DNA of 64,000 nucleotides. Source: an uncultured Chloroflexia bacterium. Its GTDB lineage: Bacteria > Chloroflexota > Limnocylindria > Limnocylindrales > CSP1-4. The DNA lies in assembly GCA_963826225.1 (NCBI GenBank), contig CAWGWF010000001.1, positions 2,483,023-2,547,022 of the forward strand. Direction: 5' to 3'. This document shows positions 1 to 59,472 of the stretch, in pieces. Positions within the stretch are counted from its first letter, which is position 1, and each line of letters begins with the position of its first letter. Both the position numbers and the translations under genes were made by a program. The notes below the pieces were generated by a model that saw only the letters and a program-made list of their open reading frames with translations, was not told the origin of the DNA and made no database searches.

Positions 1-694
1 CACGACGAACAGGCGCCGCACGATCGGGTCGCCCGCGACGGCCCGCACGGCCCCGAACGCGAGCCGCAGCACCGGTCCCTCCGGGATCACCTCCGGGCGC
101 ACCTCGCGTGTGCCCAGGCCGACCAGGAGCGCGGTCCCCAGCGACAGGCCCGCCGAGAGCGCGAACACGCCGGGCGATCGCCCAGCCCGGCGCCGTCGAT
201 CAGGAGGCCGGCCAGCGCCGGGCCGACCGCGAAGCCGATCGGGCCGGCCGCCCCGAACAGGGCGATCGTGGTTCCCAGGCGGGGACGCGGCGTCACGTCC
301 CGGATCCCGGCCAGCATCACGCCCGGTGTTGCCCAGCTGGAACCCGATCAGCAGCACCGCCAGCGCCACCTGCCACGGCTCCTGCGCCATCGCGGCGAGC
401 CCGAACACGACCGTCTCGACCAGGGCGCTGCGCACGATCACCGCCTTGCGGCTGTACTTGTCGGCCCACACGCCCCACAGCGGCACCAGCGGCAGCCCCA
501 GCACGAACACGAGCGAGCTGAACAGCCCGATGAACGCAAGCCGCTCGTCCTCGGGCACGCCCAGCTGGCGCAGGTAGGCCGGCAGCAGCGCGAACACCTG
601 GCTCACGCCCAGCCGCCTCCACGAGCTGGGTGATCCAGAACGCGGCGACGACGACGCGCCAATCCTGCTGCTGGCGGGTCGCTGGCTGATTCAC
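1..694 (-). pseudogene. MFS transporter, N-terminal ~230 codons (gene runs off the window start); frame broken by at least three apparent frameshifts (near 175, 315 and 603)
   Basis: Minus-strand translation gives MFS hallmarks (QVFALLPAYLRQLGVPEDER, GVWADKYSRKAVIVRSAL, GFAVGPALAGLLIDGAGLG, AFGAVRAVAGDPIV) but they lie in three different frames. GTG start candidate at 694. Divergent from the LCP gene. Confidence 0.5.
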
Positions 695-14363: not shown

Positions 14364-14644
14364 GTCCGGTGCCCATGGTCCCGGTCCTCCCGGATCCAGG
14401 TCACGATCTGCTCCGTGCTGGCCGGGGGGAGCCGGTCCAGGGCTCGACGGCGCACGAGCTGGTCCAGCGCGGCCAGCCGCCGCTCCCGGACCCGGTCCGG
14501 GTCCAGGTGCTCGAGGTCCGCGAGCGGGACGATCGCGGCGACCGGCTGGCCCGCTCGCTCCACGATGAACCGCTCGCCGGCGGCGGCCTCGTCCAGCACC
14601 TGGCCGAACCGGGCCCGGACGTCCAGGGCGCTGATCGCTCTCAT
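14360..14644 (-). CDS. type II antitoxin, Phd/YefM family
   Basis: 94 aa. MRAISALDVRARFGQVLDEAAAGERFIVERAGQPVAAIVPLADLEHL is the Phd/YefM fold signature. Upstream of vapC in the same operon. Confidence 0.75.
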   Translation of the reverse strand: MRAISALDVRARFGQVLDEAAAGERFIVERAGQPVAAIVPLADLEHLDPDRVRERRLAALDQLVRRRALDRLPPASTEQIVTWIREDRDHGHRT

Positions 14645-14674: not shown

Positions 14675-15310
14675 TCAACCGGAGCCGAGATCCCCGCGCG
14701 TGTCGATGTCGCGCAGCGTGGCGCCCATCGGGTCGAGGGCGAGCCATTCGGCGGCCGGGAGGGTCGCGGCTCCGGCAGCCTCCAGCAGCGAGCGGAGGCT
14801 CCGGCGACCGCCCGCGAGGCAGGCTTCCAGTGCGTCCGTGACGGCACCGGGCCGCAGCGCCATGGGCAGCGGTGTGGGCGGTGATGCGTCGAGGGTGATC
14901 GCGGTCAGGTCCTCGTCGGCGGTCAGGCGATCGGCAAGGAGCCGCAGCACGCCCGGCACCATGCCCGGCATGTCCCCGCCGGCGATGATCACGACGCGCG
15001 GCGGGTGATCCCGGGCGAGGACGACATCCAGCCCTGCCGCGACGCCCGCCAGCGGCCCGCCGAGCGCCTCCCGGTCACGCGTCACGGAGACGCGGTCGGC
15101 CAAAGGCGCCGGAACAGGAGGCGCGGGGGCACCGGGTGCGAGCACCAGGACGATGTCGTCCACCACCGCGGCAACCGCCCACAGCGCATGGTGGAGCACC
15201 GGGCGGCCGCCCAGGTCGGCGGCGAGCTTGTCCCCGCCGAAGCGGCTCGACTCCCCACCCGCGAGGACGATCGCCGTGATCGCCGTGCCGCTCGCGGGCT
15301 CGCTGCTCAC
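14675..15310 (-). CDS. mobA: molybdenum cofactor guanylyltransferase MobA
   Basis: 211 aa. N-terminal ITAIVLAGGESSRFGGDKL (MobA LAGGxSxRMGxDK motif). ATGA overlap with the selB stop. Confidence 0.8.
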   Translation of the reverse strand: MSSEPASGTAITAIVLAGGESSRFGGDKLAADLGGRPVLHHALWAVAAVVDDIVLVLAPGAPAPPVPAPLADRVSVTRDREALGGPLAGVAAGLDVVLARDHPPRVVIIAGGDMPGMVPGVLRLLADRLTADEDLTAITLDASPPTPLPMALRPGAVTDALEACLAGGRRSLRSLLEAAGAATLPAAEWLALDPMGATLRDIDTRGDLGSG

Positions 15311-17270
15311 GTCTCACCGTCCGCGCCGGCGGCCCGATCGCGCGCCCGCGCGATCGCCTTCGGCCCCAGGACGTGCCCCGCGTCGGTGCGGCGGAGCAGG
15401 CCACGCCGATCGAGGTCCTCCAGCACGACCACCACATAGCGGCGGCTGGTGCCGGTCGCGTCGCGGAACGCCGCCGGCGAGAGGGGCCCGGCGGCGGCCA
15501 TCGACAGGGCGCGTTTCGCCAGGTCCCGGTAGGTCGTCGCGGCCCATGCCAGGTCGTCCTCCAGGCGGACGATCCGGCCGGCCGTCACGAGGGCGCGCAC
15601 CCCTTCCGGCGGACAGCCCACGGCACGCGCCGTCTCTGCGAGCGCTGGTGGGGCGGGCACGTCCAGGGCCGCCTCGAGGCGGTCCATCGCCGCCATGGTG
15701 GCGGGCGGCAGGCCGGCGACCCGCGCGGGGTCGCGAAGCCGGTCCCCGTCGCGGGCCAGGACCCCACCGGCCACGGCTGCGTCCTCGACGTGGCGCGCGA
15801 CCTCGTCCGCCGCGGCGCGATCGAGCGTTGCCCGCCGCCGGGCGGCGAGCGCCAGGTCCCGCCGCAACGCCGGCGCGGGCAACCCGGGGGAGCCCGGCTC
15901 CGCCGCGTGGTGCGCCGCGACCAGGTCCCGCGCCGTGGCCGCCAGCGCGTCTGCGACATCCGGCGCAAGGGTCCAGCCGCCCGCGCCGCGAACGGCCCCG
16001 TGGAGGTCCAGCCGGGCGGCATCCGGGCCTGCGGCACCGGTGGCGCCGATCGAGGCGGGACCGGCGGCCGCGGCCGCGAGCGCCGCTGCGCGCGCCGGTG
16101 TCAGCCGCCGGCGCGACACCCCGCGCGGAGGGTCCGGGTCCAGGATCACGCCGCCGCCCGCGGTGGACCCGGGCGACGGGCGACGCAGCGCGAACGCGTC
16201 CCCGGCGGCGGCCGCCACCCGCGCGTCGAGCCGCAGCAGCGCCACCGAGGACCCGTCGGGCAGATCGATCGCCTCGCGCGGGCCCCGGATCACGAGCGCG
16301 GCCGCCTGCGCGGTCCCCAGGTGGAGGCGGAGCGCTCGCGGTCGGCAGGCGCGGGCACCGGGGGGCGGGCAGGATCGAGCGCGACCGTCGGGCGGACCGC
16401 GACCAGCACCCGCGACGTCGCCACGACCCCGGGGTCGCGCGTCAGGACCTGGCCCCGCCGCACGTCCGACGCCTCGACGCCGCCCAGCAGCAGCGCGGTC
16501 CGCCCGCCGGCCGCCGACTCGACGGTCGCGCCGCGGACCTGGACCTCGCGGACCCGGACGTCGATGCCCTCGGGCATGAGCCGCAGGGTCATCCCGGCCG
16601 TCACCGGCCCGCCACGCAGGCTGCCCGTCACCACCGTCCCGCGCCCCCGGACCGCGAACACCCGGTCGATCGCCAGCCGGGGTGGTCGCTCCGCCGCCGC
16701 GGTCGCCGACCCCCCCAGGCGAGCGGCGAGGCGGGCCACGATCTCAGCGACGGCCGCCCGGACGGCCTCCACGCCCTCGCCGGTGGCGGCGGACGCGACC
16801 AGCACCGGCGCCCCGGCGAGGGAGGTCCGGTCCAGCAGCGCACGCACCTCGCGGGCGACCTCCGCCGGCCGTTCGGCGTCCGCGGCCAGGTCCGCCTTGG
16901 TGACGATGCCGAGGCCGTCCCGGACCCCGAGCGCGTCCAGCAGCTCCAGGTGCTCCAACGTCTGCGCCCGCGCGCCGTCGTCCGCCGCGACGATCACCAT
17001 CGCCGCATCGATCTCGCCGGCCCCCACCAGCATGTTGCCGATCAGCCGGTCGTGGCCCGGCACGTCCACGAAGTCCGCCACGGTCCCGTCCGGCAGCGCG
17101 AGGTGCGCATACCCCACGTCGATCGTGATCCCGCGTCGCCGCTCCTCGGGCAGCCGGTCGGCGTCGATGCCGGTCAACGCGCGCAGGAGCGCGGTCTTGC
17201 CGTGGTCGATGTGGCCGGCGGTGCCGATGACCACGGCGGGGTCGGCGGCCGGGCCGGAGTTCGCGGTCAT
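15307..17270 (-). pseudogene. selB: selenocysteine-specific elongation factor SelB, interrupted by one apparent frameshift near 16340-16370 (G6 run); domains I-II in ORF 16290..17270, domain III and winged helices in ORF 15307..16293
   Basis: GTPase motifs VIGTAGHIDHGKT, DVPGH, TKADL. Domain III-end motif AFALRRPSPGSTAGGGVILDP and LHLGTAQAAALVI appear only in the alternative frame upstream of 16293. The two ORFs overlap by ATGA. Confidence 0.7.
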
Positions 17271-18649
17271 CGTCCGGGCGGCGGCAGGTCCGCGATGCGG
17301 CGCGCGATCGTGCCGTCCTCGAACGGTGGCACGGTCCGCAGGTCGAACACCAGCGCATCGTCCACGATCCGGGCCAGGATCCGGTCCGGCACGCGGCGCA
17401 GGGCCGCGGCCGCCCGCGTGGGCGACGCCGCCGGCACGGACACGCCGAAGGACGGCAGCACCTGGCCGGGCAGCGAGCCGCCCCCGACCGGCGATTCGAG
17501 CGCCACCACGGAGACGTCGCCGCGCCCGGCCCCGGCAGCCTGACCGGCGATCCACTCGGCGCGGTCCCGCAGCACCCCAGGCGCCCGGGCGATCAGCTGC
17601 CAGACGGGGATGTCGATCGCCGCCCGCCCGGCCCGGTAGATGGCGAGCGTGGCCGCCACCCCGGCCAGGATCGACTTGTCCGGGCGCATCGCCCGGGCCA
17701 GCGGGTCCCGTCGCAGCCGCGCGATCAGCTCCCGCCGCCCGACGAGCAGCCCCGCCTGCGGCCCGCCCACCAGCTTGTCGCCGCTGAACAGCACGACGTC
17801 GGCACCCGCGGCCAGGCGCTCGGCGGGGGTGGGCTCGTGGGCAAGCCCGAAGTCGGCTGTGTCAAGGAGGGCGCCCGAGCCCAGGTCGTCGAGGACGAGG
17901 GCGCCGTGCGCGTGGGCGAGCGCCGCGACCTCGGTGAGATCCGCGCTCTCCGCGAACCCGGTGACCGCGAAGTTGGACGGATGGACCCGGAGCACCGCCC
18001 GTGCCCGGCCGTCCGCCAGCGGGGCCTCGAAGTCCGCCGCCCGGGTCCGGTTCGTCGTGCCGACCTCCACCAGGCGCGCCCCCGCCCGGGCCGTGATCTC
18101 CGGGATCCGGACCCCGCCGCCGATCTCCACCAGCTCCCCGCGCGAGACCGCGATGCCGCCCCGCCGCCCGGCCAGGCCCACCGCCAGGAGCAGGGCGGCC
18201 GCGTTGTTGGTCACGACCATCGCGTCCTCGGCGCCCGTCAGCGCCACGAGATGCTCCTCCGCGGCACGGAACCGCGGCCCGCGGCGGCCCGTGCCCGGGT
18301 CCAGCTCGAGGTAGCCGTACGAGCGGGCGGCGAGCGCCGCCGCGGCGCGCGCGGCCCGCGGCCAGGGTGCCCGCCCCAGGTTCGTGTGCAGGATGACGCC
18401 CGTCGCGTTGATGACCGGCAGAGGGATCGTCGCGGCCGGATCGCCCAGCGCCGCGACCCGCGCCAGGACCGCGTCGGCCAGCTCCGCCTCCGGGGTGGGA
18501 GGGGCGCCCGAGGCCAGGCGCCGCCGCTCCTCGTCGACCACGTCGCGAGCCAGGGCCGTCAGCGCCGCGGGCTCGGACACCTCGACCTCGTCGCGGACGA
18601 GGACGAGGAGGCGCTCGATGCTCGGGGGCCGGGCCCGGGCCGTCGTCAT
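17267..18649 (-). CDS. selA: L-seryl-tRNA(Sec) selenium transferase SelA
   Basis: 460 aa intact. PLP-lysine region VLFSGDKLVGGPQAG, INATGVILHTNLGRAP. Stop overlaps the selB start. The ORF-track extension to 20794 was rejected. Confidence 0.9.
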   Translation of the reverse strand: MTTARARPPSIERLLVLVRDEVEVSEPAALTALARDVVDEERRRLASGAPPTPEAELADAVLARVAALGDPAATIPLPVINATGVILHTNLGRAPWPRAARAAAALAARSYGYLELDPGTGRRGPRFRAAEEHLVALTGAEDAMVVTNNAAALLLAVGLAGRRGGIAVSRGELVEIGGGVRIPEITARAGARLVEVGTTNRTRAADFEAPLADGRARAVLRVHPSNFAVTGFAESADLTEVAALAHAHGALVLDDLGSGALLDTADFGLAHEPTPAERLAAGADVVLFSGDKLVGGPQAGLLVGRRELIARLRRDPLARAMRPDKSILAGVAATLAIYRAGRAAIDIPVWQLIARAPGVLRDRAEWIAGQAAGAGRGDVSVVALESPVGGGSLPGQVLPSFGVSVPAASPTRAAAALRRVPDRILARIVDDALVFDLRTVPPFEDGTIARRIADLPPPGR

Positions 18650-19302
18650 CGGTCCGTCCCCGCGGGCCGCGCGGCCACGATGTCGAACAGGTGCCAGTGC
18701 TTCGGCCCGCCGAACGAGCCGGCGTCCTCCTCGTGCTCGTCCAGCTCGACCACCTCGAGGCCGTCGAGGAGGCGCTCCACATCGGCCCGATCGACGAACG
18801 CGACGTCGGGCTCGCCGGCGTAGTCGTCGCGGTCGCCGAACAGGTTCACGACCAGCAGCCCGCCCGGGGCGAGGGCGTCCACGAGCCGCCGCCAGGCGAC
18901 GGGGAACAGGTCCGGACCGAGGTACGGGAGGCTGAACCCTGAGTACACGAGGTCGGCCGGCGGCAGATCCACGGTCTCCGCGGAGGCCACGGCGATCGCG
19001 AGGCGGTCGCGCTGCGTCGGCGGCACGCGCTCCTCGAGCACGTCGGCCGCGGCCTGCTGGGCGTCGATGGCGAGGACGCGCCAGCCGGCGGCCAGGAGCT
19101 CGGCGGTCTCGGTCCCGTCGCCGAACCCGATCTCGACCGCCACTCCGGGTTCGCGCCCGGTCTCGGCCCACGCCGCCCTCGCCCGTTCGAACAGGTCGCG
19201 CGGGGCCCGGCCGGCCGTGTAGCGGTAGTAGGCGGCCCAGTCGGGCTCCTCGACCGCGAGATCCGCGGCGGTCGCGTCGGGGGTGTCGGGTTGCTCGTCC
19301 AT
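18646..19302 (-). CDS. class I SAM-dependent methyltransferase (small, TehB-like architecture)
   Basis: 218 aa. Motif I VEIGFGDGTETAELLAAGWRVLAIDAQ, post-I acidic residue, LAPGGLLVV. First gene of the apparent mtase-selA-selB-mobA operon. ATGA overlap with selA. Confidence 0.65.
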   Translation of the reverse strand: MDEQPDTPDATAADLAVEEPDWAAYYRYTAGRAPRDLFERARAAWAETGREPGVAVEIGFGDGTETAELLAAGWRVLAIDAQQAAADVLEERVPPTQRDRLAIAVASAETVDLPPADLVYSGFSLPYLGPDLFPVAWRRLVDALAPGGLLVVNLFGDRDDYAGEPDVAFVDRADVERLLDGLEVVELDEHEEDAGSFGGPKHWHLFDIVAARPAGTDR

Positions 19303-19402
19303 CCGTGGCCATCCTAGGGCGCCGCGGGACGGTGCGTGCAGGCGCATCCCGCGGCGCCGGCCGGCGAATACGATGGCCGGCAGGCTGGAGACGGGAGGCG
19401 CG

Positions 19403-20524
19403 ATGCACCCAGGCGGGGCACCGGACGTGGTCGTGGTCGGGGGCGGGATCGTGGGAACCGCCACCGCCGCGTTCCTGGCCGGGGCCGGTGCGCGCGTGCT
19501 CGTCCTCGAGCGGGACGGGCTGGCCTCGGGGGCGTCCGGCGCCAATGCCGGCGTGGTCCAGCACCCGTTCGATCCTGTGCTGGCCGTCCTGTACCACGAG
19601 ACCGTGATGCTGTACCGGGACCTGGCGGCGGGCTCGCGCGCCTTCGCGTTTCCGCCGAGCCCGGTCGGGCTGCTGACCCTCTCCGCGTCCGAGGCCACGG
19701 TGCGACGGGAGGCGGAGCGCATCCGCGGCCCGTATCCGGATCTCGGGGTGGAAGTGCTGGATGGGCCGGCGCTCCGCGAGGTCGAGCCGGCGGCGGCCGA
19801 GGGCCTGTGGGCCTGCCGCGTGGATATCGGCTACCCGGTGATGCCGGGCGCCTCGACCTACGCGTACGCGACGCTGGCGGAGGCGCGGGGCGCGGTCATC
19901 CGGATGGGCCGCACGGCCTCGCTGGCGGTCGCCGGCGACGCGGTCGTCGGGGTCCGGGTCGGGGGCGAGGTCATCCCCGCCGGCGCGGTCGTGGCGGCCG
20001 CCGGACCATGGACGCCGGAGCTGCTCGATCCGGCCGGGCGCTGGGCGCCGATCACCCCGCGCTGGGGCGTCGTGGTGGAGGTGGAGCCCGCCTCGCCGCC
20101 GCGGCACGTGCTGGAGGAGGCGGACGAAGACGCCGAGGATGTCGGGGCGGGCGACGGGGCCGAGTCGAGCTTCGCCCTGGTTCCCCAGCTCGGAGCCGCC
20201 GCGGTGGGCGCGACCTTCCTGGTCCGCGAGCCGGATCCGGCGGCCTGGATGGAGCGGATCCTCGTGCGGGCGTCGCGGTTCGTCCCGGGTGTCGCCGAGG
20301 CGCCGATCCGGGGCGTCCGCGCCTGCGCGCGGCCCCAGAGCGCCGACGGCCGGCCGCTCGTCGGGGCCGTTCCGGGCAAGCGGAACCTGTTCGTGTGCGC
20401 GGGGCACGGCCCGTGGGGCATCACGACCGGCCCGGCGTCCGCACGCCTGGTGGCGGACCTCGTCCTGGGCCGTACGCCGGCGATCCCCGCCGAGCTGGAT
20501 CCGGCGCGGTTCGGGGCGCCGTGA
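19403..20524 (+). CDS. FAD-dependent oxidoreductase (DAO / glycine-oxidase-like family)
   Basis: ATG at 19403 preceded by GGGAGG. Dinucleotide-binding VVVVGGGIVGTATAAFLAGAGARVLVLE, C-terminal GHGPWGITTGPASARLVADLV typical of DAO-family enzymes. Confidence 0.75.
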   Translation: MHPGGAPDVVVVGGGIVGTATAAFLAGAGARVLVLERDGLASGASGANAGVVQHPFDPVLAVLYHETVMLYRDLAAGSRAFAFPPSPVGLLTLSASEATVRREAERIRGPYPDLGVEVLDGPALREVEPAAAEGLWACRVDIGYPVMPGASTYAYATLAEARGAVIRMGRTASLAVAGDAVVGVRVGGEVIPAGAVVAAAGPWTPELLDPAGRWAPITPRWGVVVEVEPASPPRHVLEEADEDAEDVGAGDGAESSFALVPQLGAAAVGATFLVREPDPAAWMERILVRASRFVPGVAEAPIRGVRACARPQSADGRPLVGAVPGKRNLFVCAGHGPWGITTGPASARLVADLVLGRTPAIPAELDPARFGAP

Positions 20525-20593
20525 CGGCGAGAGGCGAGCCACGAGGCGACCCGGAACGGCGAGGCACCGCCCAACCCGAGCCGGAGAGGTGCG

Positions 20594-20690
20594 TGGCGGG
20601 AGCGCATGGGAGTCGAACCCACCGCGCGACGCCGGGCGCCGCGCCACCGGTTTTGAAGACCGGGGAGCCCACCGGGACCCCTCCGCTCCC
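20594..20690 (-). tRNA. selC: tRNA-Sec (selC), anticodon UCA, long variable arm, 97 nt including CCA
   Basis: Minus-strand read GGGAGCGG-AG-GGGUCC-CGGU-GGGCUC-CC-CCGGU-CUUCAAA-ACCGG-[24-nt extra arm GGCGCGGCG...GUCGCGC]-GUGGG-UUCGACU-CCCAU-GCGCUCCC-G-CCA. This gives a 6-bp D-stem with 4-nt D-loop, a UCA anticodon in a CUUCAAA loop, a 5-bp T-stem and a 7/8-bp acceptor stem. Confidence 0.8.
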
Positions 20691-20759
20691 AGCGCCGATG
20701 GTAGCGCCGCCGCCCGCCTCGGGACCGGGCTGCGCGTCCGGCGTCGTATCCTCCCGCGC

Positions 20760-21821
20760 ATGACCGAGCCGGCCCTCCCCGCGATCCGCCTCACCGACTA
20801 CACCGAGTGCGGCGGCTGCGCCGCGAAGCTCGGCGCGGACCTGCTGGCCGAGGCGCTGGCAGGACTCGGCGCGGGGGACGCGGCTGGGGCGGCGGACCCG
20901 GCCCTGATCGCCGGCCTGGCACCGCCCGACGATGCTGCGGCGTGGCGCGTCTCGGACGACCTGGCGATCCTGGGCACGCTCGACTTCTTCCCGCCGCTCG
21001 TGGACGACCCGGCGGAGTACGGCGAGATCGCGGCGGCCAACGCGCTCTCGGACGTGTTCGCGATGGGCGGTCGGGTGCTGTTCGCGCTGTCGATCGCGGC
21101 CTTCCCGGAGGGCTTCCCGCGCGGGAGCGCTGGCGACGATCCTCGAGGCGGCGGCGGCGAAGGTGCGCGAGGCGGGCGGCCTGCTGGCGGGCGGGCACAC
21201 GATCCGGGACCCCGAGCCGAAGTTCGGGCTGGCCGTGATCGGCGCCGCGCACCCGGACCGGCTGCTGCGAAAGGGCGGCGCGACGCCCGGCGACGTGCTC
21301 GCTGCTCACGAAACGCCTGGGGACCGGGCTGCTGGTGAGCGGTCGGCGCCAGGGTCGCGTCGGGGACGCGGACCTGCGCGCCGCCATTCGACCAGATGCG
21401 AAGCCTCAATCGGGCCGCGTCCGAGGCCCTCGTCCGTCACGGGATCCGCGGCGCCACGGACGTGACGGGGTTCGGGCTCCTGGGTCACGCCCTGGAGATG
21501 GCCCGAGCCTCGGGAGCCCGGCTGGCCTTCGAGGCCGCCGCCCTGCCGGCCCTCGACGGCGCCCTGGATCTGGCACGCGGTGGCGTCGAGACCGATGGCG
21601 CCGGTCACAACCGGCGGTACACGGCCCCGGCGCTGGCGATCGCCGACGCCGTGCCGGAGGCGGCGGCCGCGCTCGCCCACGATCCGCAGACGTCCGGGGG
21701 CCTGCTGGCGGCGGTGCCCCGGGCGGTCCTCGCAGCGGTGGAGGCGGATCTCGCCGCGGCCGGTGTCGCGGCATGGCGGGTCGGATCGGTGGAGCTCGGC
21801 GAGGGCGTCGCCCTGCGCTGA
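20760..21821 (+). pseudogene. selD: selenide, water dikinase SelD, reading frame broken by three apparent +1 frameshifts (about 21126, 21300, 21390); frames 0 to 1 to 2 to 0
   Basis: Segments in successive frames align end-to-end with E. coli SelD: TDYTECGGCAAK...AAFPEGFPRG | ALATILEAAAAKVREAGGLLAGGHTIRDPEPKFGLAV...GDVL | LTKRLGTGLLVSGRRQGRVGDADLRAAI | DQMRSLN...TDVTGFGLLGHALEM...DPQTSGGLL. Divergent from tRNA-Sec, 70 bp away. Confidence 0.7.
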
Positions 21822-21918
21822 CGCGGGCGTCTGCCGCCAGCCGCGACGGGCCGGACCGTCCTCGACAACGGTGCCGGGGACTCTGGCCCCGTGCGCTGCG
21901 GCGGTCGATGCTGTGGTC

Positions 21919-22380: not shown

Positions 22381-22483
22381 GCCTGCGACCCGTAACAGGA
22401 GCGACGCGACCGGCGTCGCATCGCTGGTCTCGACACCCGCCTCGCGCATGGTGCGCGGGGATTGAGACCTGGAGCGCGCGATC

Positions 22484-26400: not shown

Positions 26401-26426
26401 CGTGCGGCCCGCCCGGATCGGGGCCG

Positions 26427-29308: not shown

Positions 29309-29310
29309 GC

Positions 29311-30801: not shown

Positions 30802-30820
30802 CGCCCTGGCTCCTTCGTTC

Positions 30821-32320: not shown

Positions 32321-32325
32321 CCCGG

Positions 32326-36799: not shown

Positions 36800-38722
36800 A
36801 TGCCGAAGGAGTACGTCCGCCTGACCACGCCGCTCGTGCGCGACGGCGACCGCCGCTCCGGGGCGCCTCTCCGCCCAGCCAGCTGGGACGAGGCGCTGCA
36901 GAGGACGGTCGACGGGCTCCGGGCGGCAGGCGAGGCGCACGGCTCCCGGACGTACGGGATCTTCAGCTGCAGCCGCTCCACCAACGAGGTGAACTTCGCG
37001 GCCGGCAAGTTCTCCCGGGTCGTCCTGGGCAGCAACAACATCGACAGCTGCAACCGCACCTGACACGCCCCCTCTGTCGCCGGTCTGGCGACCGTGTTCG
37101 GCGCTGGCGGGTGCACCAGCTCATACCGTGAGATCGAGGAGACGGACGTCATCCTCCTGTGGGGCAGCAACGCCCGGGAGACGCATCCGATCTTCTTCCA
37201 CCACCTCCTGAAGGGGGTCCGCAACGGTGCCCGGCTGTACGCCGTGGACCCGCGGCGCACCTCGTCCGCGGAGTGGGCCGACCTGTGGCTGGGCCTGGAC
37301 GTCGGGACGGACATCGTGATGGCCAACGCGATGGGCCGCGAGATCATCGCCGCCGGGCTGGCCGACGAGGAGTTCATTCACCGGGCCACGACCGGCTTCG
37401 AGGCCTACAAGGCGACGGTGGAGCCCTACACGCTGGAGCGCGCGCAGCGCGAGACCGGCGTCCCGGCCGATGCGATCCGCGAGGCGGCGCACGCGTACGC
37501 CACCGCCAACCGGGCCATGATCTGCTGGACGCTGGGCATCACGGAGCACCACAACGCGGTGGACAACGTGCTGGCGCTCATCAACCTGTCGCTGCTGACG
37601 GGGCACGTGGGCAAATGGGGCAGCGGCCTCAACCCGCTCCGGGGCCAGAACAACGTCCAGGGTGGCGGCGACAGCGGCGCGCTGCCGGACCGGCTGCCGG
37701 GCTTCCAGCACGTGGAGAACGACGAGATCCGCGCCCGCTTCGACAAGGCGTGGGGCGTCACGGTCCCGCCCCGCCGCGGATGGAACCTCACGGCGATGTA
37801 CGACGCGATGGAGCGCGGGGACCTCACGGCCCTCTACTGCATCGGCGAGAACCCGGTCCAGTCCGAGGCGGACGGGCATCGCGTGCGGCGTCTGCTCGAG
37901 GGACTCGAGTTCATGGCCGTCCAGGACATCTTCCTGACCGCCACCGCCGAGCTGGCGGACGTGGTCCTCCCGGCCGCGGCCGCTTGGGCCGAGACCGACG
38001 GCACGGTCACCAACTCCGAGCGGCGCGTTCAGCGCGTGCGCAAGGCGCTGGATCCGCCGGGCGATGCCCGCGACGACCTGTGGATCATCTTCGAGCTGGC
38101 GCGCCGGATGGGCCACGACTGGGGCGAGGCCTCCGCCGAGGCCGCCTGGAACGAGTTCCGGACGCTCTCGCCCGCGCACACCGGGATGAGCTACGCGCGG
38201 CTCGAGGCCGAGGACGGGCTCCAGTGGCCGTGCTACGACGAGACCCACCCCGGCGAGCCGTTCCTCCACTCGCGGCTGTGGGCGAACCCCGTGCCCGGCA
38301 ACCGGGCGCCGTTCGTGCCCGTTGAGCACGACCCGCCGGTGGAGGCGCTGGACGACGAGTTCCCGATGCGTCTCACCACGGGCCGCCACCTGGACTCGTA
38401 CAACACGGGCGTCCAGTCCGGTCCGCTGCGATACCCGAAGCGTCGCCGCGAGGCGATCGACCTGTGCCCGGAGGATCTGCTCCGGATGGGCCTGGCCGAG
38501 GGTGACATGGTGCGGATCGTGTCCCGCCGCGGTGCCGTCGAGGCACCCGTGCGGGTGGATCGCTCGCTGCGTCCCGGCCTCGCGTTCATGACCCTGCACA
38601 GCCCGGACGAGGTGGACGTCAACGTCCTGACGATCGACGCCACGGACTGGAAGTCCGGCACGGCCGAGTTCAAGGCCGCAGCGGTCCGCATCGAGAAGCT
38701 CGGCGCGCCGGTCGCGGGGTAG
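36800..38722 (+). CDS. formate-dehydrogenase-like molybdopterin (bis-MGD) oxidoreductase catalytic subunit, selenoprotein (TGA 37061..37063 read as Sec), lacking the N-terminal Fe-S domain
   Basis: ORFs 36800..37063 and 37094..38722 are in one frame across a single TGA. The context SNNIDSCNRT-U-HAPSVAGL matches the E. coli FdhF Sec140 context SNNVDCCARV-U-HGPSVAGL. Full FdhF-like MopB and C-terminal MGD domains follow. The protein starts at the position equivalent to FdhF residue ~60 (no CxxCxxC cluster). Confidence 0.8.
37064..37096 (+). other. SECIS-like mRNA hairpin immediately 3' of the Sec UGA
   Basis: CACGCCCCCUCU-GUCGCC-GGUCU-GGCGAC: 6-bp stem with GGUCU apical loop starting 13 nt after UGA. 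Resembles the E. coli fdhF SECIS (GCA-GGUCU-GCA apex). Confidence 0.55.
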
Positions 38723-42478: not shown

Positions 42479-42642
42479 GCGAGACGCCGCGCACCATGGG
42501 CGAGTCCCACGAGGCACCGGACGGGACGCAGCGGGCGCTGTACACCGGCGTGGACCCGGCCATCTTCACCTCGCCGCCGGCGCGATCGCCCGGTCGTCCC
42601 GGGCCGCGCCGCCGGACCGCGATCGAGCCCCCGTCGAGATGA
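42475..42642 (+). CDS. hypothetical 55-aa protein, translationally coupled on both sides (ATGA overlaps); possible small FDH subunit (FdsD-like)
   Basis: [55 protein letters not shown]. Position between the nuoEF-like and fdhA-N genes. No recognisable motif. Confidence 0.3.
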
Positions 42643-43578
42643 CCATCGACGGTCACCCGGTCACCGTGCCCGCCGGCTCGACCATCCTCGAGGCCTGCCG
42701 CGCGCAGGGCATCGACATCCCAACCCTGTGCTACGGCGAAACGCTCACAGCCCGAGGGCGTCTGCCGGCTGTGCGTGGTGGACACGGGCGGTCGCGCGCT
42801 GACGCCGTCCTGCTCGGCCAAGGTCTCGCAGGGCATGGACGTCCACACGGACAGCGAGAAGGTCCGCCTGTCGCGCAAGCTCGTGCTGGAGCTGCTGGGC
42901 TCGTCGGTGGACGTGGACCTGGCCGGGCCCGAGCTGCCGGACGGGTCCATCGCCGGCTACATGGCGCGCTACGGGGCGGATCCCGGCCGCTTCGGGCCGC
43001 CCTCGCCGCCGGCGCCGGCCGGGGACCGCGACGCGCGCCTGTCCGGCCACCACCACGCGCCGGACCCCGCGGTCGCCGAGACGGTCGCGCAGCCGGTCAA
43101 GGTGGACAACGACCTCTACGTCCGCGACTACGCGAAATGCATCCTCTGCTACAAGTGCGTCGAGGCGTGCGGCGTGGACGCCCAGAACACGTTCGCGATC
43201 TCGGTGGCCGGTCGCGGCTTCGACGCCCGCGTGTCCACCGAGTACGACGTGGGCCTCAACGACTCCGCCTGCGTGTACTGCGGCAACTGCATCAACGTGT
43301 GCCCGACCGGCGCGCTGATGTTCCGCTCCGAGTACGAGATGCGGCAGGCGGGCACCTGGGACGAGTCCCGCCAGACCGTGACCGACACGATCTGCCCGTA
43401 CTGCGGCGTGGGCTGCACGCTCTCGCTGCACGTGCAGGACAACCGGATCGTGAAGGTGCTCTCGCCCGCGGACTCCGAGGTCACGGAGGGCAACCTGTGC
43501 GTGAAGGGCCGCTTCGGGTTCGACTTCGTGCAGCTGCTGCCCAAGGGATCGCCCCGGGAGGACGCGCCGGCGGGCTGA
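42639..43578 (+). pseudogene. stand-alone FdhA/NuoG N-terminal Fe-S domain protein (2Fe-2S plus 4Fe-4S clusters), with one apparent +1 frameshift near 42750
   Basis: [37 protein letters not shown] | [14 protein letters not shown]...[14 protein letters not shown]...[16 protein letters not shown]...[10 protein letters not shown]...[11 protein letters not shown]. It ends exactly where the 36800 FDH-like protein begins by homology. Confidence 0.7.
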
Positions 43579-43602: not shown

Positions 43603-46600
43603 TTACACGCCCACGTCGCGCAGGTCGCAGCGCAGACAGCGGCTCGCCTCCTCGATCGTTCCTCCCGCGAATAGCCGGCGTCGTCCTGGGCGCCGGTGTC
43701 GTCCCGAGCGCCGCCGCCGCCCCGGGCGCCGCCGCGCCGCTCGGGACGGAAGCGAGGGCCGGTCTCCACCCGCAGCGGGGCGAGCTCGCTCAGGTTCTCG
43801 GCCGGGGCAAGATGCTCCTCGATGTCGCCGCTGCCGCCCAGGTACCGGTCGATGGCCTGGGCCGCGGCGCGGCCGCGAGCGATCGCCTCCACCGACGAGG
43901 CGGGACCGATCCTCGGGCCGACGACGACGAACACGCCGTCGGCCGGTGTCGGCAGGCCGTCCGGGCTCCCGTTGGGACCATCCGGGATGTCGTCCGGGTA
44001 GCCCGCGCGGGCGTCCGCCGAGATGAGGATCGCGTCGTGACCCTGCTCCCGGAGCGCCTCGATGGGGAAGCTCGGCGAGTCGGTCCGGATCGTGACCCCG
44101 GCCGCCTCGATGATCGCGAGGTCGCGCTGCAGGGCACGGACGATCGGGCTCGTCTTGCGCAGCTGCGGCTCCCCGGACCCGCCCGCGGGCATCGCGTAGC
44201 GGAGCATGCCCCCGGGCTCGGACAGCGTCTCCAGCACCGTGACGTCGTGGCGACCACGCCTGGCCAGGTAGTAGGCGGCAGTCAGGCCGTCGGGGCCCGA
44301 GCCGATCACCGCGACGGACCTGCCCGACCGCGGACCCCCGGCCGCCGGCACGCGGGCCTCGGCCCGGCCGCCGTACCGGATGGCGGCGTCCTTGAGCGCC
44401 CGGACGGCGACATTCTCGTCGAGATCCCCGCGCCGGCATGACTTCTCGCAGGGGTGGAAGCAGGCAACGCCGCAAACCGACGGCAGCGGCAGCTTCTCGC
44501 GCACGACGAGGTATGCGGCCTCGAAGTCGCCCTGGCCCACGAGCCGGATGTACCGATGGGCCTCCACCCCGGCGGGGCACAGGTGCGCGCACGGAGCGAC
44601 GACGAGCCCCGGGCACATGCCGGCCCGACAGTGCCCGCGCTCGATGTGCTCGACGTACTCGTCGCGGAAGTAGCGGAGCGTGGTGATCACCGGGTTGGGC
44701 GCCGTCTGACCCAGACCGCACAGCGACGTCGAGCCGACCGTCCGGGCCAGCTGCTCGAGGACCGGCAGGTCCTCCAGCCTGCCATCGCCCGCACAGATCC
44801 GCTCCAGGATCTCGAGCATCCGGCCGGTCCCCTCCCGGCAGGGGGTGCACTGGCCACACGACTCGTCCCGCGTGAAGGCCAGGAAGTAGCGGGCGATGTC
44901 CACCATGCAGGTGCTCTCGTCCATGATCACGAGGCCGCCCGAGCCCATGATCGATCCGGCCTCGCGCAGGCTCTCGTAGTCGATCGGGAGGTCGGCGAGG
45001 CTGGCTGGCAGGCACCCGCCGGACGGACCGCCGGTCTGGGCCGCCTTGAACCTGCCGCCCCCGGGGATGCCGCCGCCGACGTCGCGGACGACCTCGCCCA
45101 GCGTGATCCCCATCGGGACCTCGATGAGCCCGGGCCGGTTGACCTTGCCCGTGAGCGCGAACGTCTTGGTGCCCTTGCTGGTGGCCGTGCCGAACCTCGC
45201 GTACCACGCGGCGCCCTGGCGGAGGATGCTGGCGACGTTGGCCAGCGTCTCCACGTTGTTGATGTTCGACGGCCGGCCGAACAGCCCCCGGACGGCCGGG
45301 TACGGGGGCCGGGGCCGGGGCTGCCCACGACGCCCCTCGAGGCTGGCGATGAGCGCCGTCTCCTCGCCGCACACGAAGGCGCCGGCTCCCTGCCGGATGT
45401 CGATGTCGAAGGCGAAGCCGCTGCCAAGGATGTCGGGGCCCAGCAGGCCGAGCTCGCGAGCCTGGCCGATGGCGGTCTCGAGCCGGGCGATGGCGAGCGG
45501 GTACTCGGCGCGAACGTAGACGTAGCCCCGCTCCGCGCCGATCGCGAAGCCGGCGATCGTCATGCCCTCGAGGACCGCGTGCGGGTCACCCTCCAGCACG
45601 GAGCGGTCCATGAACGCGCCCGGGTCACCCTCGTCGGCATTGCAGATGAGGGACTTGGGCGATCCGGGCGCCGCGCGGCACAGCTCCCACTTGGCGCCGG
45701 TGGGGAAGCCACCGCCGCCGCGACCTCGGAGGCCGGACGCCTTGACCTCCTCGACCACGTCTGCGGGGTGCATCGCGAGGGCGCGCCGGAGGCCCGCGTA
45801 GCCATCTCGGGCCAGGTAGTGGTCGAGGCTCGTCGGGTCGATCAGGCCGCAGTTGCGGAGCGCGATCCGGACCTGGCCGCGCATCACCGGGAGGTCCTCG
45901 AGGCGCGGGATGCCCGCGATGGTGCCGTCGCCGGCGGTGCCCAGCGCGCGGTCGGCCGGTGGCTCGCCGCGGACCACGTGGGCGGCCAGGATCCCGGCCA
46001 CGTGGTCCGGCGCGACCGGGCCGTAGACGACCCGGGGCAGGCCCGGCACCTCCACGTCCAGCAGCGGCTCCGCGTAGCACAGCCCGAAGCAGCCGACGGG
46101 CACGATGGCGGCGTCCACGCCCAACCGGGCCAGCTCCGTCCGGACCGTCGGGACCAGGTCACCGGCGCCGGCGGCCAGGCCGCAGGTGGCCGTGCCGATC
46201 GAGATGACCGGTCGCTCGCCGCCGTGGAGGCGGTGCCAGCCCTCCCGCGCCTGCGCGGTTCGCCGGACCAGGTCGTGGAGGCCCGCGGCGCGGGGCGCGG
46301 CGCCGGCCAGATCCGGGACGGCAGCCGCCGCGACGTCCTGCGTCGCCAGCCCGAGGCCGCCGGCGATCCCGGATGCGTCCAGGCCGTCCACCAGGGCTCG
46401 CGCGGAGGCCGGCGTCTGGCGCCCCCGGGCGCGCCCGTTCGCGACGATCACCGGCGCCAGGGCGCAGGAGCCGAAGCAGGCCGCCGTCTCCAGCGTGCAC
46501 CCGCGGTCCGGCGTCGTTCCCCCGGCGGTCACCCCGAGATGCGTCTCGAGCGCCCGGAGCAGCCCCGCGCTGCCGCGCACGTGGCAGGCGGTCCCGCGGC

Positions 46601-46922
46601 AGACGGTGACGGTGTTGGCACCCCGCGGCTCCAGGTGGAACCCGGCGTAGAAGCTGGCCACCCCGAACACCCGGGCGGGCGACACTCGCAGGTGCGCCGC
46701 TGCGGCCTCGATCGCCGGCGCCGGCAGGTAGCCGGCCGTGCCCTGGATGAACTGGAGCACGGGGATCACGAAGCCCGGTTCGGCGGGGAAGCGCCGCGCG
46801 AGCTCAGCCGGCCAGTCGATCGCTGGCGCGCCGGCGCCCGGTGCGGACGCATCCACCCCGGGCGCGGACGCATCGACCACCGGCGCCCGTCCTTCGACCA
46901 CCGGCGGCGGATCCGCGATCAC
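43603..46922 (-). pseudogene. giant fusion flavoprotein: NuoE-like, thioredoxin-like [2Fe-2S], NuoF-like, 2x[4Fe-4S] ferredoxin, GltD-like NAD(P)H/FAD oxidoreductase; apparent frameshift about 25 codons before the stop (~43668-43685)
   Basis: ~1106 codons from GTG 46922 (GTGA overlap with the fdhA stop). NuoE block VASFYAGFHL...CRGTAC. NuoF blocks SLICNADEGDPGAFMDR, GAGAFVCGEETA, ESCGQCTPCREGT. GltD-like blocks [32 protein letters not shown]. Canonical GltD C-terminus [17 protein letters not shown] is in a different frame ending at TAA 43603. Confidence 0.7.
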
Positions 46923-58452: not shown

Positions 58453-59472
58453 ATGTCCCGGGTCACGTCCCTGACCAACATGCCCGACGCCCAGCTCAAC
58501 CGCTGGATCAAGCGGCTCGGCGCTGCTGCTGCTTGTCGTCCTCGTCGCGTTCGTCGCGTTCTACGCCGTCGATCGCTTCCGGATGCCCACGACGCCGATC
58601 ATGGACCGCGAGCTGGCGGCGCCGAGGAGGCCGTGCGGGCCGATCCGACCGACATCGACGTCGCGGGGCCGGCTTGCGGATGCATCTACTTCCTGGCGGA
58701 GCGCTACGACGATGCGATCGCGCAGTACTCGGAGCTGCTCGGACCGGCAAGGCAGGACGAGGCCGCGTACGTCAGCCGCGGCTCAGGCCTACGAGCGCAA
58801 CGGGGGAGCTCGACGCGGCGGCCGCCGACTACGCGAAGGTCATCGAGATCGGCCTGGGACCGGCGAGATGGCGAACGTCGACCCGATGCTGCCAGACGGC
58901 CTACTACGGGCTCGGCACGATCGCGCTCGCCCAGGACCGCGCCGATGACGCCATCGAGTCGCTCCTCAAGGCGCTGCGCCATCAAGCGCACTGACGCCGA
59001 CACCATGAACCTGCTGGGCGCCGGCATACGTGAAGGCGGGTCAAGCCCGGAGAAGGCCGTTCGAGCCCCTGCGCTCGCGCGATCCTGTTCGTGCCCACCC
59101 GGCTGGCCCGAGCCGTACCAGTCACTGGCGGCCGCATACACCGCGACCGGCGAGGCCGAGCAGGCGGAGTGGGCCGCCGCGATGGCCGAGGCGATGGCGG
59201 CCCTGGCCGAGGGCGGATCCGGCGACACGTCCGGTGCGGTCGCACGACTCGAGGCCATCGCCGACGGCGACGCGGCGCTCGACGCACGGATCGGCCTGGG
59301 ACTCTGCCGAGCGAGCGCAGGCGACAACGCGGCCGCCGAGGGCTGGTACCGGAAGGCGCTCGAGCTCGACGCCGAGAGCCAGGCCGCCCAGCTCGGCCTG
59401 AGCCGCGTCTCGGGCGGCACACAGGCCCATCCCGACATCATGCCTTCGCCCAGCGCCGAAGGGAGCAACTGA
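58453..59472 (+). pseudogene. membrane-anchored TPR-repeat protein, fragmented across three frames (at least four frameshifts)
   Basis: A TM helix (LLLVVLVAFVAFYAV) and TPR-like repeats (AYYGLGTIALAQDRADDAIESLLKALR; YRKALELDAESQAAQLGL) occur in different frames over 58453-59472. GGAGTGAAGGTG RBS before ATG 58453. Confidence 0.45.

What the first reader, a model, noticed from the sequence alone, without database searches (positions are those of the whole stretch)
14675..21821. Complete selenocysteine locus in which selD carries three frameshifts and selB one, while tRNA-Sec, selA and two Sec-encoding FDH genes look intact
Seen in sequence: SAM-mtase/selA/selB/mobA operon (minus strand), tRNA-Sec (20594..20690, anticodon UCA, long extra arm), divergent selD (20760..21821). 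SelD aligns with E. coli SelD only when read through three +1 frame changes (0 to 1 to 2 to 0). SelB domain III (LHLGTAQ..., ALRRPSPGSTAGGG) is in a different frame from the GTPase domain, with the break at a G6 run. Two FDH genes still carry in-frame TGA codons with intact SECIS-like hairpins. Either the Sec trait is decaying, which would also silence both FDHs, or these are local assembly indels.
Basis: partly seen in the sequence, partly recalled or inferred. Interest (0 to 1): 0.75.

Follow-up and report, generated by a model that had tools for sequence, protein, structure and literature searches.

The report
Selenocysteine locus with assembly-error frameshifts
This is an ordinary, complete selenocysteine gene set in an uncultured soil Chloroflexota genome, and its "broken" selD and selB genes are most likely single-base errors of a long-read assembly, because the same kind of break also hits unrelated genes in the window.

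Summary
The sequence facts hold. selD (20760-21821, +) needs three +1 frame changes, selB (15307-17270, -) needs one, and tRNA-Sec, selA and two TGA-containing FDH genes are intact. The reading "the Sec trait is decaying" is not supported. The same kind of frame break occurs in at least five other genes of the window: an MFS transporter, the FDH Fe-S subunit, a NuoF/GltD-like gene, a TPR gene and an NHL-repeat gene. That gives about 14-18 breaks in 64 kb, in tight clusters.

The window comes from a 2.69-Mb MAG contig, so a long-read assembly is inferred. Its relatives are Limnocylindria MAGs. Nanopore-only ones carry 1.2-2.9 frame breaks per 10 kb, including selB in 5/22 and selD in 3/19. Short-read ones carry 0.13-0.43 per 10 kb and have no broken sel gene in 61 copies. 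The window's rate, about 2.5 per 10 kb, matches the Nanopore group.

Repaired SelD is 93% identical to an intact relative. Its dN/dS is 0.11 across the stretch that would be out of frame. Repaired SelB and SelD pass the NCBIfam equivalog cut-offs.

Verdict: consensus indels in an ordinary sel locus (confidence about 0.85). The selB break is a 1-nt deletion near 16332, not in the G6 run. Raw reads remain the decisive test.

The parts
14675..15310 (-). mobA-like molybdenum-cofactor guanylyltransferase, the last gene of the operon. Its GTG start overlaps the selB stop.
   Evidence: Pfam NTP_transf_3, 2.3e-25. ORF. Start and stop codons checked.
15307..17270 (-). selB (Sec-specific elongation factor), interrupted in the sequence as given by one missing base.
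   Evidence: The N-terminal ORF runs from 17270 down to 16290 and the C-terminal ORF covers 16293-15307. After restoring one base, TIGR00475 scores 287.8 bits (cut-off 242) with one contiguous stretch across the junction. 17 relatives' ORFs span the break.
16331..16334 (-). Site of the 1-nt deletion in selB: GAGCG[-]CTCCGCC, where relatives read GAG CGN CTN CGC CTC.
   Evidence: Protein and DNA alignments with 6-10 relatives. The Viterbi frame switch falls at 16333/16334.
17270..18649 (-). selA (L-seryl-tRNA(Sec) selenium transferase), intact. Its TGA stop overlaps the selB ATG.
   Evidence: TIGR00474 scores 415 bits (cut-off 268). 75-84% aa identity to relatives.
18646..19302 (-). SAM-dependent methyltransferase, the first gene of the operon.
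   Evidence: Pfam Methyltransf_11/12/25. Start coordinate.
20598..20690 (-). tRNA-Sec (selC), anticodon UCA, long variable arm, followed by an encoded CCA.
   Evidence: Rfam RF01852, 70.4 bits, full-length match 1-91. ARAGORN. Fold. 95-98% identical to relatives.
20760..21821 (+). selD (selenide, water dikinase), interrupted in the sequence as given by three extra bases. The Cys-x-x-Lys active-site motif GGCAAK is present.
   Evidence: With the three bases removed, TIGR00476 scores 330 bits (cut-off 125) as one stretch, model positions 1-308 of 311. 93% identical to the intact P0001.
21126..21126 (+). selD frame break 1: an extra A in CGCGGG[A]GCG.
   Evidence: Pairwise alignment with L055. 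A gap in all 12 relatives at this point.
21301..21301 (+). selD frame break 2: an extra G in GTGCTC[G]CTG.
21387..21387 (+). selD frame break 3: an extra T in GCCA[T]TCGAC.
36800..38722 (+). Sec-containing catalytic part of a split formate dehydrogenase alpha subunit. TGA at 37061-37063, SECIS hairpin at 37076-37092.
   Evidence: SCNRT-U-HAPSVAGL. TIGR01591 scores 634.8 bits over model positions 53-672. TGA and hairpin are identical in 16 relatives.
42639..43578 (+). Fe-S part of the split FdhA (2Fe-2S, 4Fe-4S and Molybdop_Fe4S4 domains), with one extra base near 42745-42748.
   Evidence: tblastn with the L031 ORF gives two HSPs in different frames. The joined product gives a contiguous Fer2_4 match, positions 7-81 of 82. 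Coordinates.
43603..46823 (-). NuoE/NuoF/GltD-like electron-transfer subunit. Its C-terminal motif [11 protein letters not shown] and the stop at 43603-43605 lie in another frame, with the break near 43660.
   Evidence: Three-frame translation. Pfam domains. Coordinates. The coding signal ends at 43660 with no in-frame stop.
46919..49684 (-). Second Sec-containing FDH alpha subunit, full length with N-terminal Fe-S domains. TGA at 48557-48559, SECIS hairpin at 48528-48544.
   Evidence: CART-U-HAPTVAGL. TIGR01591 scores 799 bits (cut-off 666). Fold.
1..614 (-). MFS transporter fragment with two frame breaks (about 172 and 322). It is unrelated to selenium and serves as a control for the error rate.
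   Evidence: Viterbi segmentation. The joined pieces give one contiguous MFS_1 match, model positions 15-203 of 347.
58512..60473 (+). TPR gene and NHL-repeat gene with about 8 frame breaks (about 58620, 58789, 59636, 59753, 60150, 60277, 60421). Both are unrelated to selenium.
   Evidence: The joined NHL pieces give 3 NHL repeats, and the SGL and TEN_NHL matches span the junctions.

Best explanation
The window holds a normal bacterial selenocysteine system from a high-GC (74%) Limnocylindria (Chloroflexota) MAG.

The parts are:
- an operon of MTase, selA, selB and mobA
- tRNA-Sec
- a divergently transcribed selD
- two formate dehydrogenase genes with Sec-UGA codons and E. coli-type SECIS hairpins

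The three extra bases in selD and the missing base in selB are most likely consensus errors of a long-read, probably Nanopore-only, metagenome assembly. They are not mutations in the organism. In the living cell SelD would make selenophosphate, SelA would convert Ser-tRNA(Sec) to Sec-tRNA(Sec), and SelB would deliver it to the UGA of both FDH mRNAs through the hairpin 15 nt downstream.

Shown: the indels, their exact positions, their presence in unrelated genes, the rate comparison between assembly types, and the family membership of the repaired genes.

Inferred: that the source assembly is long-read (it is a 2.69-Mb contig and the source record is hidden), and that the reads would not support the indels.
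For: 1. Frame breaks of the same kind occur in at least five genes unrelated to Sec decoding, or only loosely linked to it. These are the MFS, fdhA Fe-S, NuoF/GltD-like, TPR and NHL genes. Pfam matches run continuously across the junctions. A homology-free scan gives 16 candidate breaks in 64 kb, or 2.5 per 10 kb.

2. The truncated SelB product is 100% identical to P0121, which sits on an NCBI/ENA contig of 2,686,480 nt. That length points to a long-read MAG.

3. Relatives were split by assembly type.
- By homologue-supported breaks, the 22 Nanopore-only MFD loci have 57 in 469 kb. The 23 short-read loci have 4 in 300 kb (p = 8e-9).
- By the homology-free scan, the counts are 135 against 13 (p = 1e-16).
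- MFD MAGs were assembled from Nanopore reads alone and polished with one round of Medaka (PMC12313526).
- Nanopore consensus indels are a known cause of frameshifts in gene calls, and R10.4 assemblies reach near-finished quality at about 40-fold coverage (PMC9262707).

4. In MFD relatives selB is broken in 5/22, selD in 3/19 and selA in 1/22. In short-read relatives none of 61 copies is broken (Fisher p = 0.003). The 12 of 57 breaks that fall in sel genes match the share of locus length those genes occupy.

5. Breaks cluster in MFD relatives too. 21 of 57 have a neighbour within 500 nt, against 11% expected. This matches the three selD breaks lying within 262 nt.

6. About two dozen SelD fragments of 100-220 aa lie on contigs of 50 kb-1.8 Mb, nearly all from ENA. 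Many SelB products of 380-550 aa lie on long ENA contigs.

7. Repaired selD against the intact L055 gene gives dN/dS 0.175 overall and 0.11 between breaks 1 and 3. No stop codon appears, and the active-site motif is kept.

8. All 42 selD loci from short-read JGI metagenomes match the repaired protein in one segment.

9. tRNA-Sec, selA and both TGA plus SECIS sites are intact, and the FDH-b TGA/SECIS site (37061) is identical to those of 16 relatives.
Against: - No reads could be examined, so the indels are not directly disproved.
- Four of the five indels resolved to the base are not in homopolymers, which is the classical Nanopore error context. Only the T to TT change is a minimal run.
- Within the window, sel and FDH-related genes take a somewhat larger share of the break clusters (3-4 of about 6) than their 25% share of length.
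- selA, the MTase and the FAD oxidoreductase, which lie between the selB and selD breaks, are clean.
Confidence: 0.85

Rival explanations
1. Genuine recent pseudogenisation. This population has lost selenophosphate synthesis and Sec delivery through real frameshift mutations in selD and selB. That leaves tRNA-Sec, selA and two UGA-containing FDH genes stranded, and the FDH accessory genes are starting to decay as well.
For: - The frameshifts are in the deposited sequence.
- Further breaks lie in FDH-linked genes, fdhA Fe-S and NuoF/GltD-like.
- Most of the indels are not in homopolymers.
- Neighbouring selA and the MTase are clean.
Against: - The same kind of break hits MFS, TPR and NHL genes with no link to selenium.
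- The window's break density equals that of Nanopore-only relatives.
- Broken sel genes are seen only in Nanopore-only MAGs and never in 61 short-read copies.
- dN/dS is 0.11 in the stretch that would be out of frame, with no stop codons and the catalytic motif kept.
- Three indels within 262 nt, without excess substitutions, is not how neutral decay looks.
- The SECIS elements and tRNA-Sec are unchanged.
Confidence: 0.07
2. Strain-mixture consensus artefact. Several co-existing strains of the species were collapsed into one contig. The assembler's consensus switches between haplotypes in variable stretches and creates local clusters of indels that exist in no single genome.
For: - The breaks come in tight clusters separated by long clean stretches.
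- The window differs from close relatives by a 4.6-kb insertion next to selD, which shows local structural variability.
- k-mer contigs from two public runs end 36 nt from the selB deletion.
Against: - This cannot be told apart from plain low-coverage consensus error without reads.
- A second k-mer contig boundary lies 227 nt from the nearest selD break, so the coincidence is weak.
- The biological conclusion is the same: the frameshifts are not real.
Confidence: 0.06
3. Programmed recoding. The selD and selB mRNAs are read through by ribosomal frameshifting, so the genes are functional as written.
For: The three selD shifts are all +1 and sum to a restored frame.
Against: - No relative has any of these shifts: 12 DNA alignments, 42 metagenome loci and more than 100 intact SelD proteins.
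- There is no shared slippery motif at the sites.
- Unrelated genes carry both +1 and -1 breaks.
Confidence: 0.01

Closest known systems
Bacterial selenocysteine-insertion system of the E. coli type (selA, selB, selC, selD, with an fdhF-type SECIS)
   Same: - All four components are present and pass family models once the single-base indels are undone.
- selA and selB are translationally coupled (ATGA overlap).
- Sec-UGA sits in the FDH active-site motif, followed after 12 nt by a hairpin with a GGUCUG apical sequence. From my own knowledge, this resembles the E. coli fdhF SECIS.
   Different: - The operon also carries a SAM methyltransferase and mobA.
- One of the two Sec-FDH alpha subunits is split into a catalytic gene and a separate Fe-S gene.
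- SelD uses Cys, not Sec, at the active site.
- As deposited, selB and selD are frame-broken.
Frameshift artefacts in Nanopore-only metagenome-assembled genomes (the IDEEL-type truncated-protein problem)
   Same: - The breaks are single-base indels that split genes irrespective of function.
- Their rate matches that of Nanopore-only MFD MAGs of the same clade, and they are absent from short-read MAGs.
- The literature describes residual consensus indels that cause frameshifts in Nanopore-only assemblies, with R10.4 near-finished at about 40-fold coverage (PMC9262707), and Nanopore-only Flye plus one Medaka round for MFD MAGs (PMC12313526).
   Different: - The classical description stresses homopolymers. 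Here four of the five resolved indels are outside homopolymers, and the breaks are strongly clustered.
- The platform of this particular contig could not be verified.
Evolutionary loss of the Sec trait in bacterial lineages (selenoprotein to Cys-homologue replacement with loss of sel genes)
   Same: Broken selD and selB next to intact UGA-containing FDH genes is what an early stage of such a loss would look like.
   Different: - Known losses, from my own knowledge of comparative selenoproteome studies, end with sel genes deleted and UGA replaced by Cys codons.
- Here every relative keeps TGA and the SECIS.
- The breaks are not specific to the trait, and selection signatures are intact.

Membership tests
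Bacterial Sec-decoding system (selABCD) | tRNA-Sec with UCA anticodon and the family-specific fold (long variable arm, extended acceptor stem) | tested here: met
   Rfam RF01852 scores 70.4 bits against a gathering score of 47, with a full-length match. ARAGORN calls tRNA-SeC with anticodon TCA.
Bacterial Sec-decoding system (selABCD) | SelA (selenocysteine synthase) present and full length | tested here: met
   TIGR00474 equivalog scores 415 bits against a cut-off of 267.9, model positions 5-452 of 455.
Bacterial Sec-decoding system (selABCD) | SelB and SelD encoded as uninterrupted reading frames | tested here: not met
   In the sequence as given, selB is split near 16332 and selD at 21126, 21301 and 21387. 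After undoing four single-base indels, both pass their equivalog cut-offs: TIGR00475 scores 287.8 against 242, and TIGR00476 scores 330 against 125.
Bacterial Sec-decoding system (selABCD) | Target genes with in-frame UGA at a known Sec position, followed by a SECIS hairpin | tested here: met
   TGA lies at 37061 and at 48557-48559 in the FDH motif C-x-R-T-U-H. The hairpin is at 37076-37092 and 48528-48544. For the FDH-b site it is invariant, wobble positions included, in 16 relatives.
Bacterial Sec-decoding system (selABCD) | Actual incorporation of selenium into FDH | not testable with these tools
   This needs 75Se labelling or proteomics.
Decaying trait (true pseudogenes) | Disruptions confined to, or strongly enriched in, genes of the trait | tested here: not met
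   Breaks also occur in MFS, TPR and NHL genes. In Nanopore-only relatives, 12 of 57 breaks fall in sel genes, in proportion to their share of about 20% of locus length.
Decaying trait (true pseudogenes) | Relaxed selection in the broken genes (dN/dS rising towards 1, stop codons, loss of catalytic residues) | tested here: not met
   selD against L055 gives dN/dS 0.175 overall and 0.11 between the breaks, with no stops and the Cys-x-x-Lys motif kept. Caveat: most of the divergence may predate any inactivation.
Decaying trait (true pseudogenes) | Indels supported by independent reads or assemblies of the same strain | not testable with these tools
   Logan contigs of the same strain exist (ERR12037369, ERR15459714), but their DNA is not retrievable and they do not cover the break sites. 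No protein in the collection is 100% identical to the repaired SelD across the break sites.
Long-read consensus indel artefacts | Source is a long-read assembly without short-read polishing | tested here: inconclusive
   The contig is 2,686,480 nt and comes from NCBI/ENA. The record look-up is blocked. Nanopore-only origin is established for the MFD relatives (PMC12313526) but not for this contig.
Long-read consensus indel artefacts | Single-base indels spread over unrelated genes, at the rate seen in assemblies of that type and far above short-read assemblies | tested here: met
   The window has 2.5 breaks per 10 kb, Nanopore-only relatives 2.9 and short-read relatives 0.43. Homologue-supported rates are 1.2 against 0.13 per 10 kb.
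Long-read consensus indel artefacts | Indels located in homopolymer runs | tested here: not met
   The resolved indels are an A after GGG, a G between C and C, a T to TT change, a lost base in CG[-]C, and one extra base in ACA[G]CCC. None lies in a run of 4 or more.

The most novel reading that the evidence does not exclude
At least the selD and selB indels could be real. That would be a natural Limnocylindria population caught just after it lost selenophosphate synthesis and Sec delivery. It would still carry an intact tRNA-Sec, selA and two UGA/SECIS formate dehydrogenase genes that can no longer be completed. This would be a rare snapshot of the first step of Sec-trait loss.
Probability: 0.06. 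Interest if true: 0.45.

Novelty: not a real feature. Interest (0 to 1): 0.08.

Why it matters
If the frameshifts were real, this would be a snapshot of a bacterium abandoning selenocysteine while its selenoprotein genes still depend on it. As it stands, the value is cautionary.

In very GC-rich long-read MAGs of this clade, about 1-3 genes per 10 kb are split by consensus indels, and the breaks cluster. Several breaks in functionally linked neighbouring genes can therefore mimic trait decay. Pseudogene or trait-loss calls from such assemblies need read-level support, or at least a check of the background frameshift rate in the same contig.

The underlying biology is ordinary. Limnocylindria carry a conserved Sec system that serves NAD-linked formate dehydrogenases.

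Tried and rejected
- **Exact-product look-ups for the source or for independent assemblies.** selA, two selD pieces, the FAD oxidoreductase and P0121 were not on record or were blocked. The antitoxin and the SRPBCC protein were found in Logan contigs of ERR12037369, ERR15459714 and SRR18684952. Their DNA was not retrievable, or the contig did not cover the break sites.
- **Searches for a near-identical intact SelD.** These used the full repaired protein, then a 125-aa stretch spanning the three breaks, then a JGI metagenome scan. The best hits were 93%, 85% and 81% identical. No same-strain sequence exists in these collections, so the indels could not be disproved directly.
- **The G6-run hypothesis for selB.** It is rejected: the frame stays correct for another 30 nt past the run.
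- **Apparent frame breaks from stop-to-stop ORFs.** One near 10356 was judged an antisense overlap of a divergent gene pair. Two at 24088 and 32365 were judged ordinary gene boundaries. None is counted.
- **The in-frame TGA at 34056.** It is the boundary between two polyamine ABC-transporter genes, not a Sec codon.
- **Fold z-scores of the SECIS regions.** They are uninformative at this GC content. Conservation across relatives was used instead.
- **The coincidence of a Logan contig end with the selB deletion.** It was considered as evidence for read heterogeneity. It was then down-weighted, because a second contig end showed no such coincidence.


Full report
**What is in the sequence**

The window is 73-78% GC around the finding, the highest in the window. 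The minus strand carries a tightly packed operon:
- a SAM methyltransferase (18646-19302)
- selA (17270-18649)
- selB (15307-17270)
- a mobA-like gene (14675-15310)

Stop and start codons of neighbouring genes overlap. ARAGORN and Rfam both find tRNA-Sec at 20594/20598-20690/20692 on the minus strand, with anticodon UCA. The Rfam score is 70.4 bits against a gathering score of 47. selD starts at 20760 on the plus strand and ends at 21821.

Two formate dehydrogenase genes carry in-frame TGA in the canonical motif:
- SCNRT-U-HAPSVAGL at 37061
- CART-U-HAPTVAGL at 48557-48559 on the minus strand

The hairpin GTCGCCGGTCTGGCGAC starts 15 nt after each TGA. Sixteen relatives have the same TGA at the 37061 position. 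Their hairpin is invariant, wobble positions included, while the adjacent codons vary synonymously.

**The frame breaks, located precisely**

selD has to be read in frames 0, 1, 2, 0. I aligned the DNA with 12 relatives and with the closest relative I could find. That relative is JGI contig L055, whose selD is intact and 93% identical in protein. The alignments show three single-base insertions in the window:
- A at 21126
- G at 21301
- T at 21387

selB is split into an N-terminal ORF and a C-terminal ORF. That is wrong. Relatives share the motif APADRER, which lies downstream of the run and is still in the N-terminal frame. The DNA alignment shows one base missing at GAGCG[-]CTCCGCC, near 16332-16333.

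With these four single-base changes undone, SelB and SelD each give one contiguous match above the NCBIfam equivalog cut-off. TIGR00475 scores 287.8 against 242, and TIGR00476 scores 330 against 125. SelA and the full-length FDH pass as they stand.

**Are the breaks special to the selenium genes? No.**

I trained a codon-usage model on long ORFs of the window and ran a Viterbi segmentation over all six frames. It recovers the four sel breaks. It also finds same-strand frame switches without a stop codon in five other genes:
- an MFS transporter (about 172 and 322)
- the Fe-S gene of a split FdhA (about 42745)
- a NuoE/NuoF/GltD-like gene, whose C-terminal [11 protein letters not shown] motif and stop codon lie in another frame (about 43660)
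- a TPR gene (58.5-59.4 kb)
- an NHL-repeat gene (59.5-60.5 kb)

When the pieces are joined, the Pfam matches run straight across the junctions:
- MFS_1, model positions 15-203 of 347
- Fer2_4, positions 7-81 of 82
- SGL and TEN_NHL across several NHL pieces

The window therefore holds roughly 14-18 breaks, in clusters near 0.2 kb, 16.3 kb, 21.1-21.4 kb, 42.7-43.7 kb and 58.6-60.4 kb.

**Where the window comes from, and what such assemblies look like**

All relatives are Chloroflexota of the class Limnocylindria, and all are MAGs. The truncated 326-aa SelB product is 100% identical to a protein recorded on an NCBI/ENA contig of 2,686,480 nt. The record itself cannot be looked up. A contig of that length from a 74%-GC soil organism points to a long-read assembly.

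Among the 45 Limnocylindria-type relatives fetched, 22 are "MFD" MAGs. These were assembled from Nanopore reads alone with Flye and one round of Medaka (PMC12313526). The other 23 are short-read MAGs (MEGAHIT or SPAdes contig names).

| Measure | Nanopore-only (22 loci, 469 kb) | Short-read (23 loci, 300 kb) | p |
|---|---|---|---|
| Breaks supported by at least 4 other loci | 57 | 4 | 8e-9 |
| Breaks from the homology-free Viterbi test | 135 (2.9 per 10 kb) | 13 (0.43 per 10 kb) | 1e-16 |
| Broken selB | 5/22 | 0/21 | see below |
| Broken selD | 3/19 | 0/17 | see below |
| Broken selA | 1/22 | 0/23 | see below |

On the homology-free test the window scores 16 in 64 kb, or 2.5 per 10 kb. Pooling the three sel genes gives 9 of 63 copies broken against 0 of 61 (Fisher p = 0.003).

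The 12 breaks that fall in sel genes are what their share of locus length predicts. Breaks cluster in the Nanopore loci as well: 21 of 57 have a neighbour within 500 nt, against 11% expected.

The protein collection adds to this. About two dozen SelD fragments of 100-220 aa lie on contigs of 50 kb to 1.8 Mb, nearly all from ENA. Many SelB products of 380-550 aa lie on long ENA contigs. All 42 selD loci from short-read JGI metagenomes match the repaired protein in one piece.

Residual consensus indels are a known cause of frameshifts in Nanopore-only assemblies. R10.4 data give near-finished genomes at about 40-fold coverage (PMC9262707).

**Selection signature**

Repaired selD compared with the intact L055 gene gives these values:

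| Segment | dN/dS | Substitutions |
|---|---|---|
| Whole gene | 0.175 | about 64 synonymous, 31 non-synonymous |
| Before the first break | 0.10 | 20 synonymous, 6 non-synonymous |
| Between the first and third break (86 codons) | 0.11 | 14 synonymous, 4 non-synonymous |

There are no stop codons, and the active-site Cys-x-x-Lys motif (GGCAAK) is kept. Three indels within 262 nt with no excess of non-synonymous change is not the pattern of neutral decay. Most of the divergence may predate any inactivation, so this is supporting evidence and not decisive.

**Best explanation and what remains open**

The locus is an ordinary, complete Sec-decoding system that serves two Sec-dependent formate dehydrogenases. 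The frameshifts are best explained as consensus indels of a long-read MAG (confidence about 0.85).

Points that keep this from certainty:
- I could not see reads or the platform of this contig.
- Four of the five indels resolved to the base are not in homopolymers.
- Within the window, sel and FDH-linked genes take a somewhat larger share of the break clusters than their share of length. They also sit in the highest-GC stretch.

Genuine recent loss of the Sec trait keeps about 0.06-0.07. A strain-mixture consensus artefact, which leads to the same biological conclusion, has about 0.06. Programmed frameshifting has about 0.01.

**Comparison with known systems and novelty**

The system works like the E. 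coli selAB/selC/selD system with an fdhF-type SECIS. It is a member of that family by every testable criterion except "uninterrupted selB and selD as deposited". The frame breaks belong to the known class of long-read assembly artefacts, although their non-homopolymer context and strong clustering are worth noting. The finding as posed, a decaying Sec trait, is most likely not a real biological feature. Interest is low.

Noticed in passing
window 36800-38722 and 42639-43578 (+): One of the two Sec-FDH alpha subunits is split. The catalytic Mo/Sec part starts at model position 53 of TIGR01591 and lacks the Fe4S4 domain. The 2Fe-2S, 4Fe-4S and Molybdop_Fe4S4 domains are encoded by a separate gene 4 kb downstream, after an HTH gene, a GYD-like gene and a NuoE/F fusion gene. 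A separate Fe-S ORF is also found in relatives L031 (short-read) and L034 (Nanopore-only), so the split is not an assembly artefact.
   Followed up: partly
window 21830-26425: About 4.6 kb lies between selD and the MTTB genes and is absent in relatives L055, L007 and L003, where selD abuts the MTTB genes directly. It holds an SRPBCC/polyketide-cyclase-like gene and two large genes, one of them a lipoprotein.
   Followed up: no
window 26428-32365 (-): Four tandem paralogous MTTB-family (trimethylamine methyltransferase-like) genes sit next to a polyamine-type ABC transporter. They are conserved next to the sel locus in many relatives.
   Followed up: no
window 37076-37092; relatives L002-L051: The SECIS hairpin codons GTC GCC GGT CTG GCG AC are invariant at wobble positions in 16 relatives. 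The two codons just upstream vary synonymously (CCC TCT, CCA AGC, CCT AGC, CCG AGC). This is a clean signature of an RNA-level constraint.
   Followed up: partly
window 18092-18181 (-): ARAGORN reports a 'tRNA-???' with a two-base anticodon inside selA. Rfam gives no hit there, so it is most likely a false positive in GC-rich coding sequence.
   Followed up: yes
window 60823-62213 and 62389-63680 (+): Two tandem paralogues carry many CxxCH haem-binding motifs. Their N-terminal stretches of about 100 aa are almost identical, which suggests a recent duplication or gene conversion.
   Followed up: no
window 13938-14644, 53973-54495, 56696-58203: Three toxin-antitoxin pairs are present: PhdYefM/PIN directly downstream of mobA, a ParE/RelE-like pair, and a HipB/HipA-like pair.
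   Followed up: no
window 16296 and 21614 (Logan contigs from ERR12037369 and ERR15459714): Public k-mer assemblies of two runs contain contigs whose gene products are identical to this strain's. One contig begins 36 nt from the selB deletion site. Another begins 227 nt past the last selD break. The DNA was not retrievable, so these runs are the obvious place to check the indels.
   Followed up: partly
window 43603-46823 (-): The GltD-like C-terminal part of the NuoE/NuoF fusion protein looks shortened. Pyr_redox_2 matches only model positions 2-105 of 291, and the sequence after GGMLRY is unusual. This may hide further compensating indels, or it may be a real domain loss.
   Followed up: no
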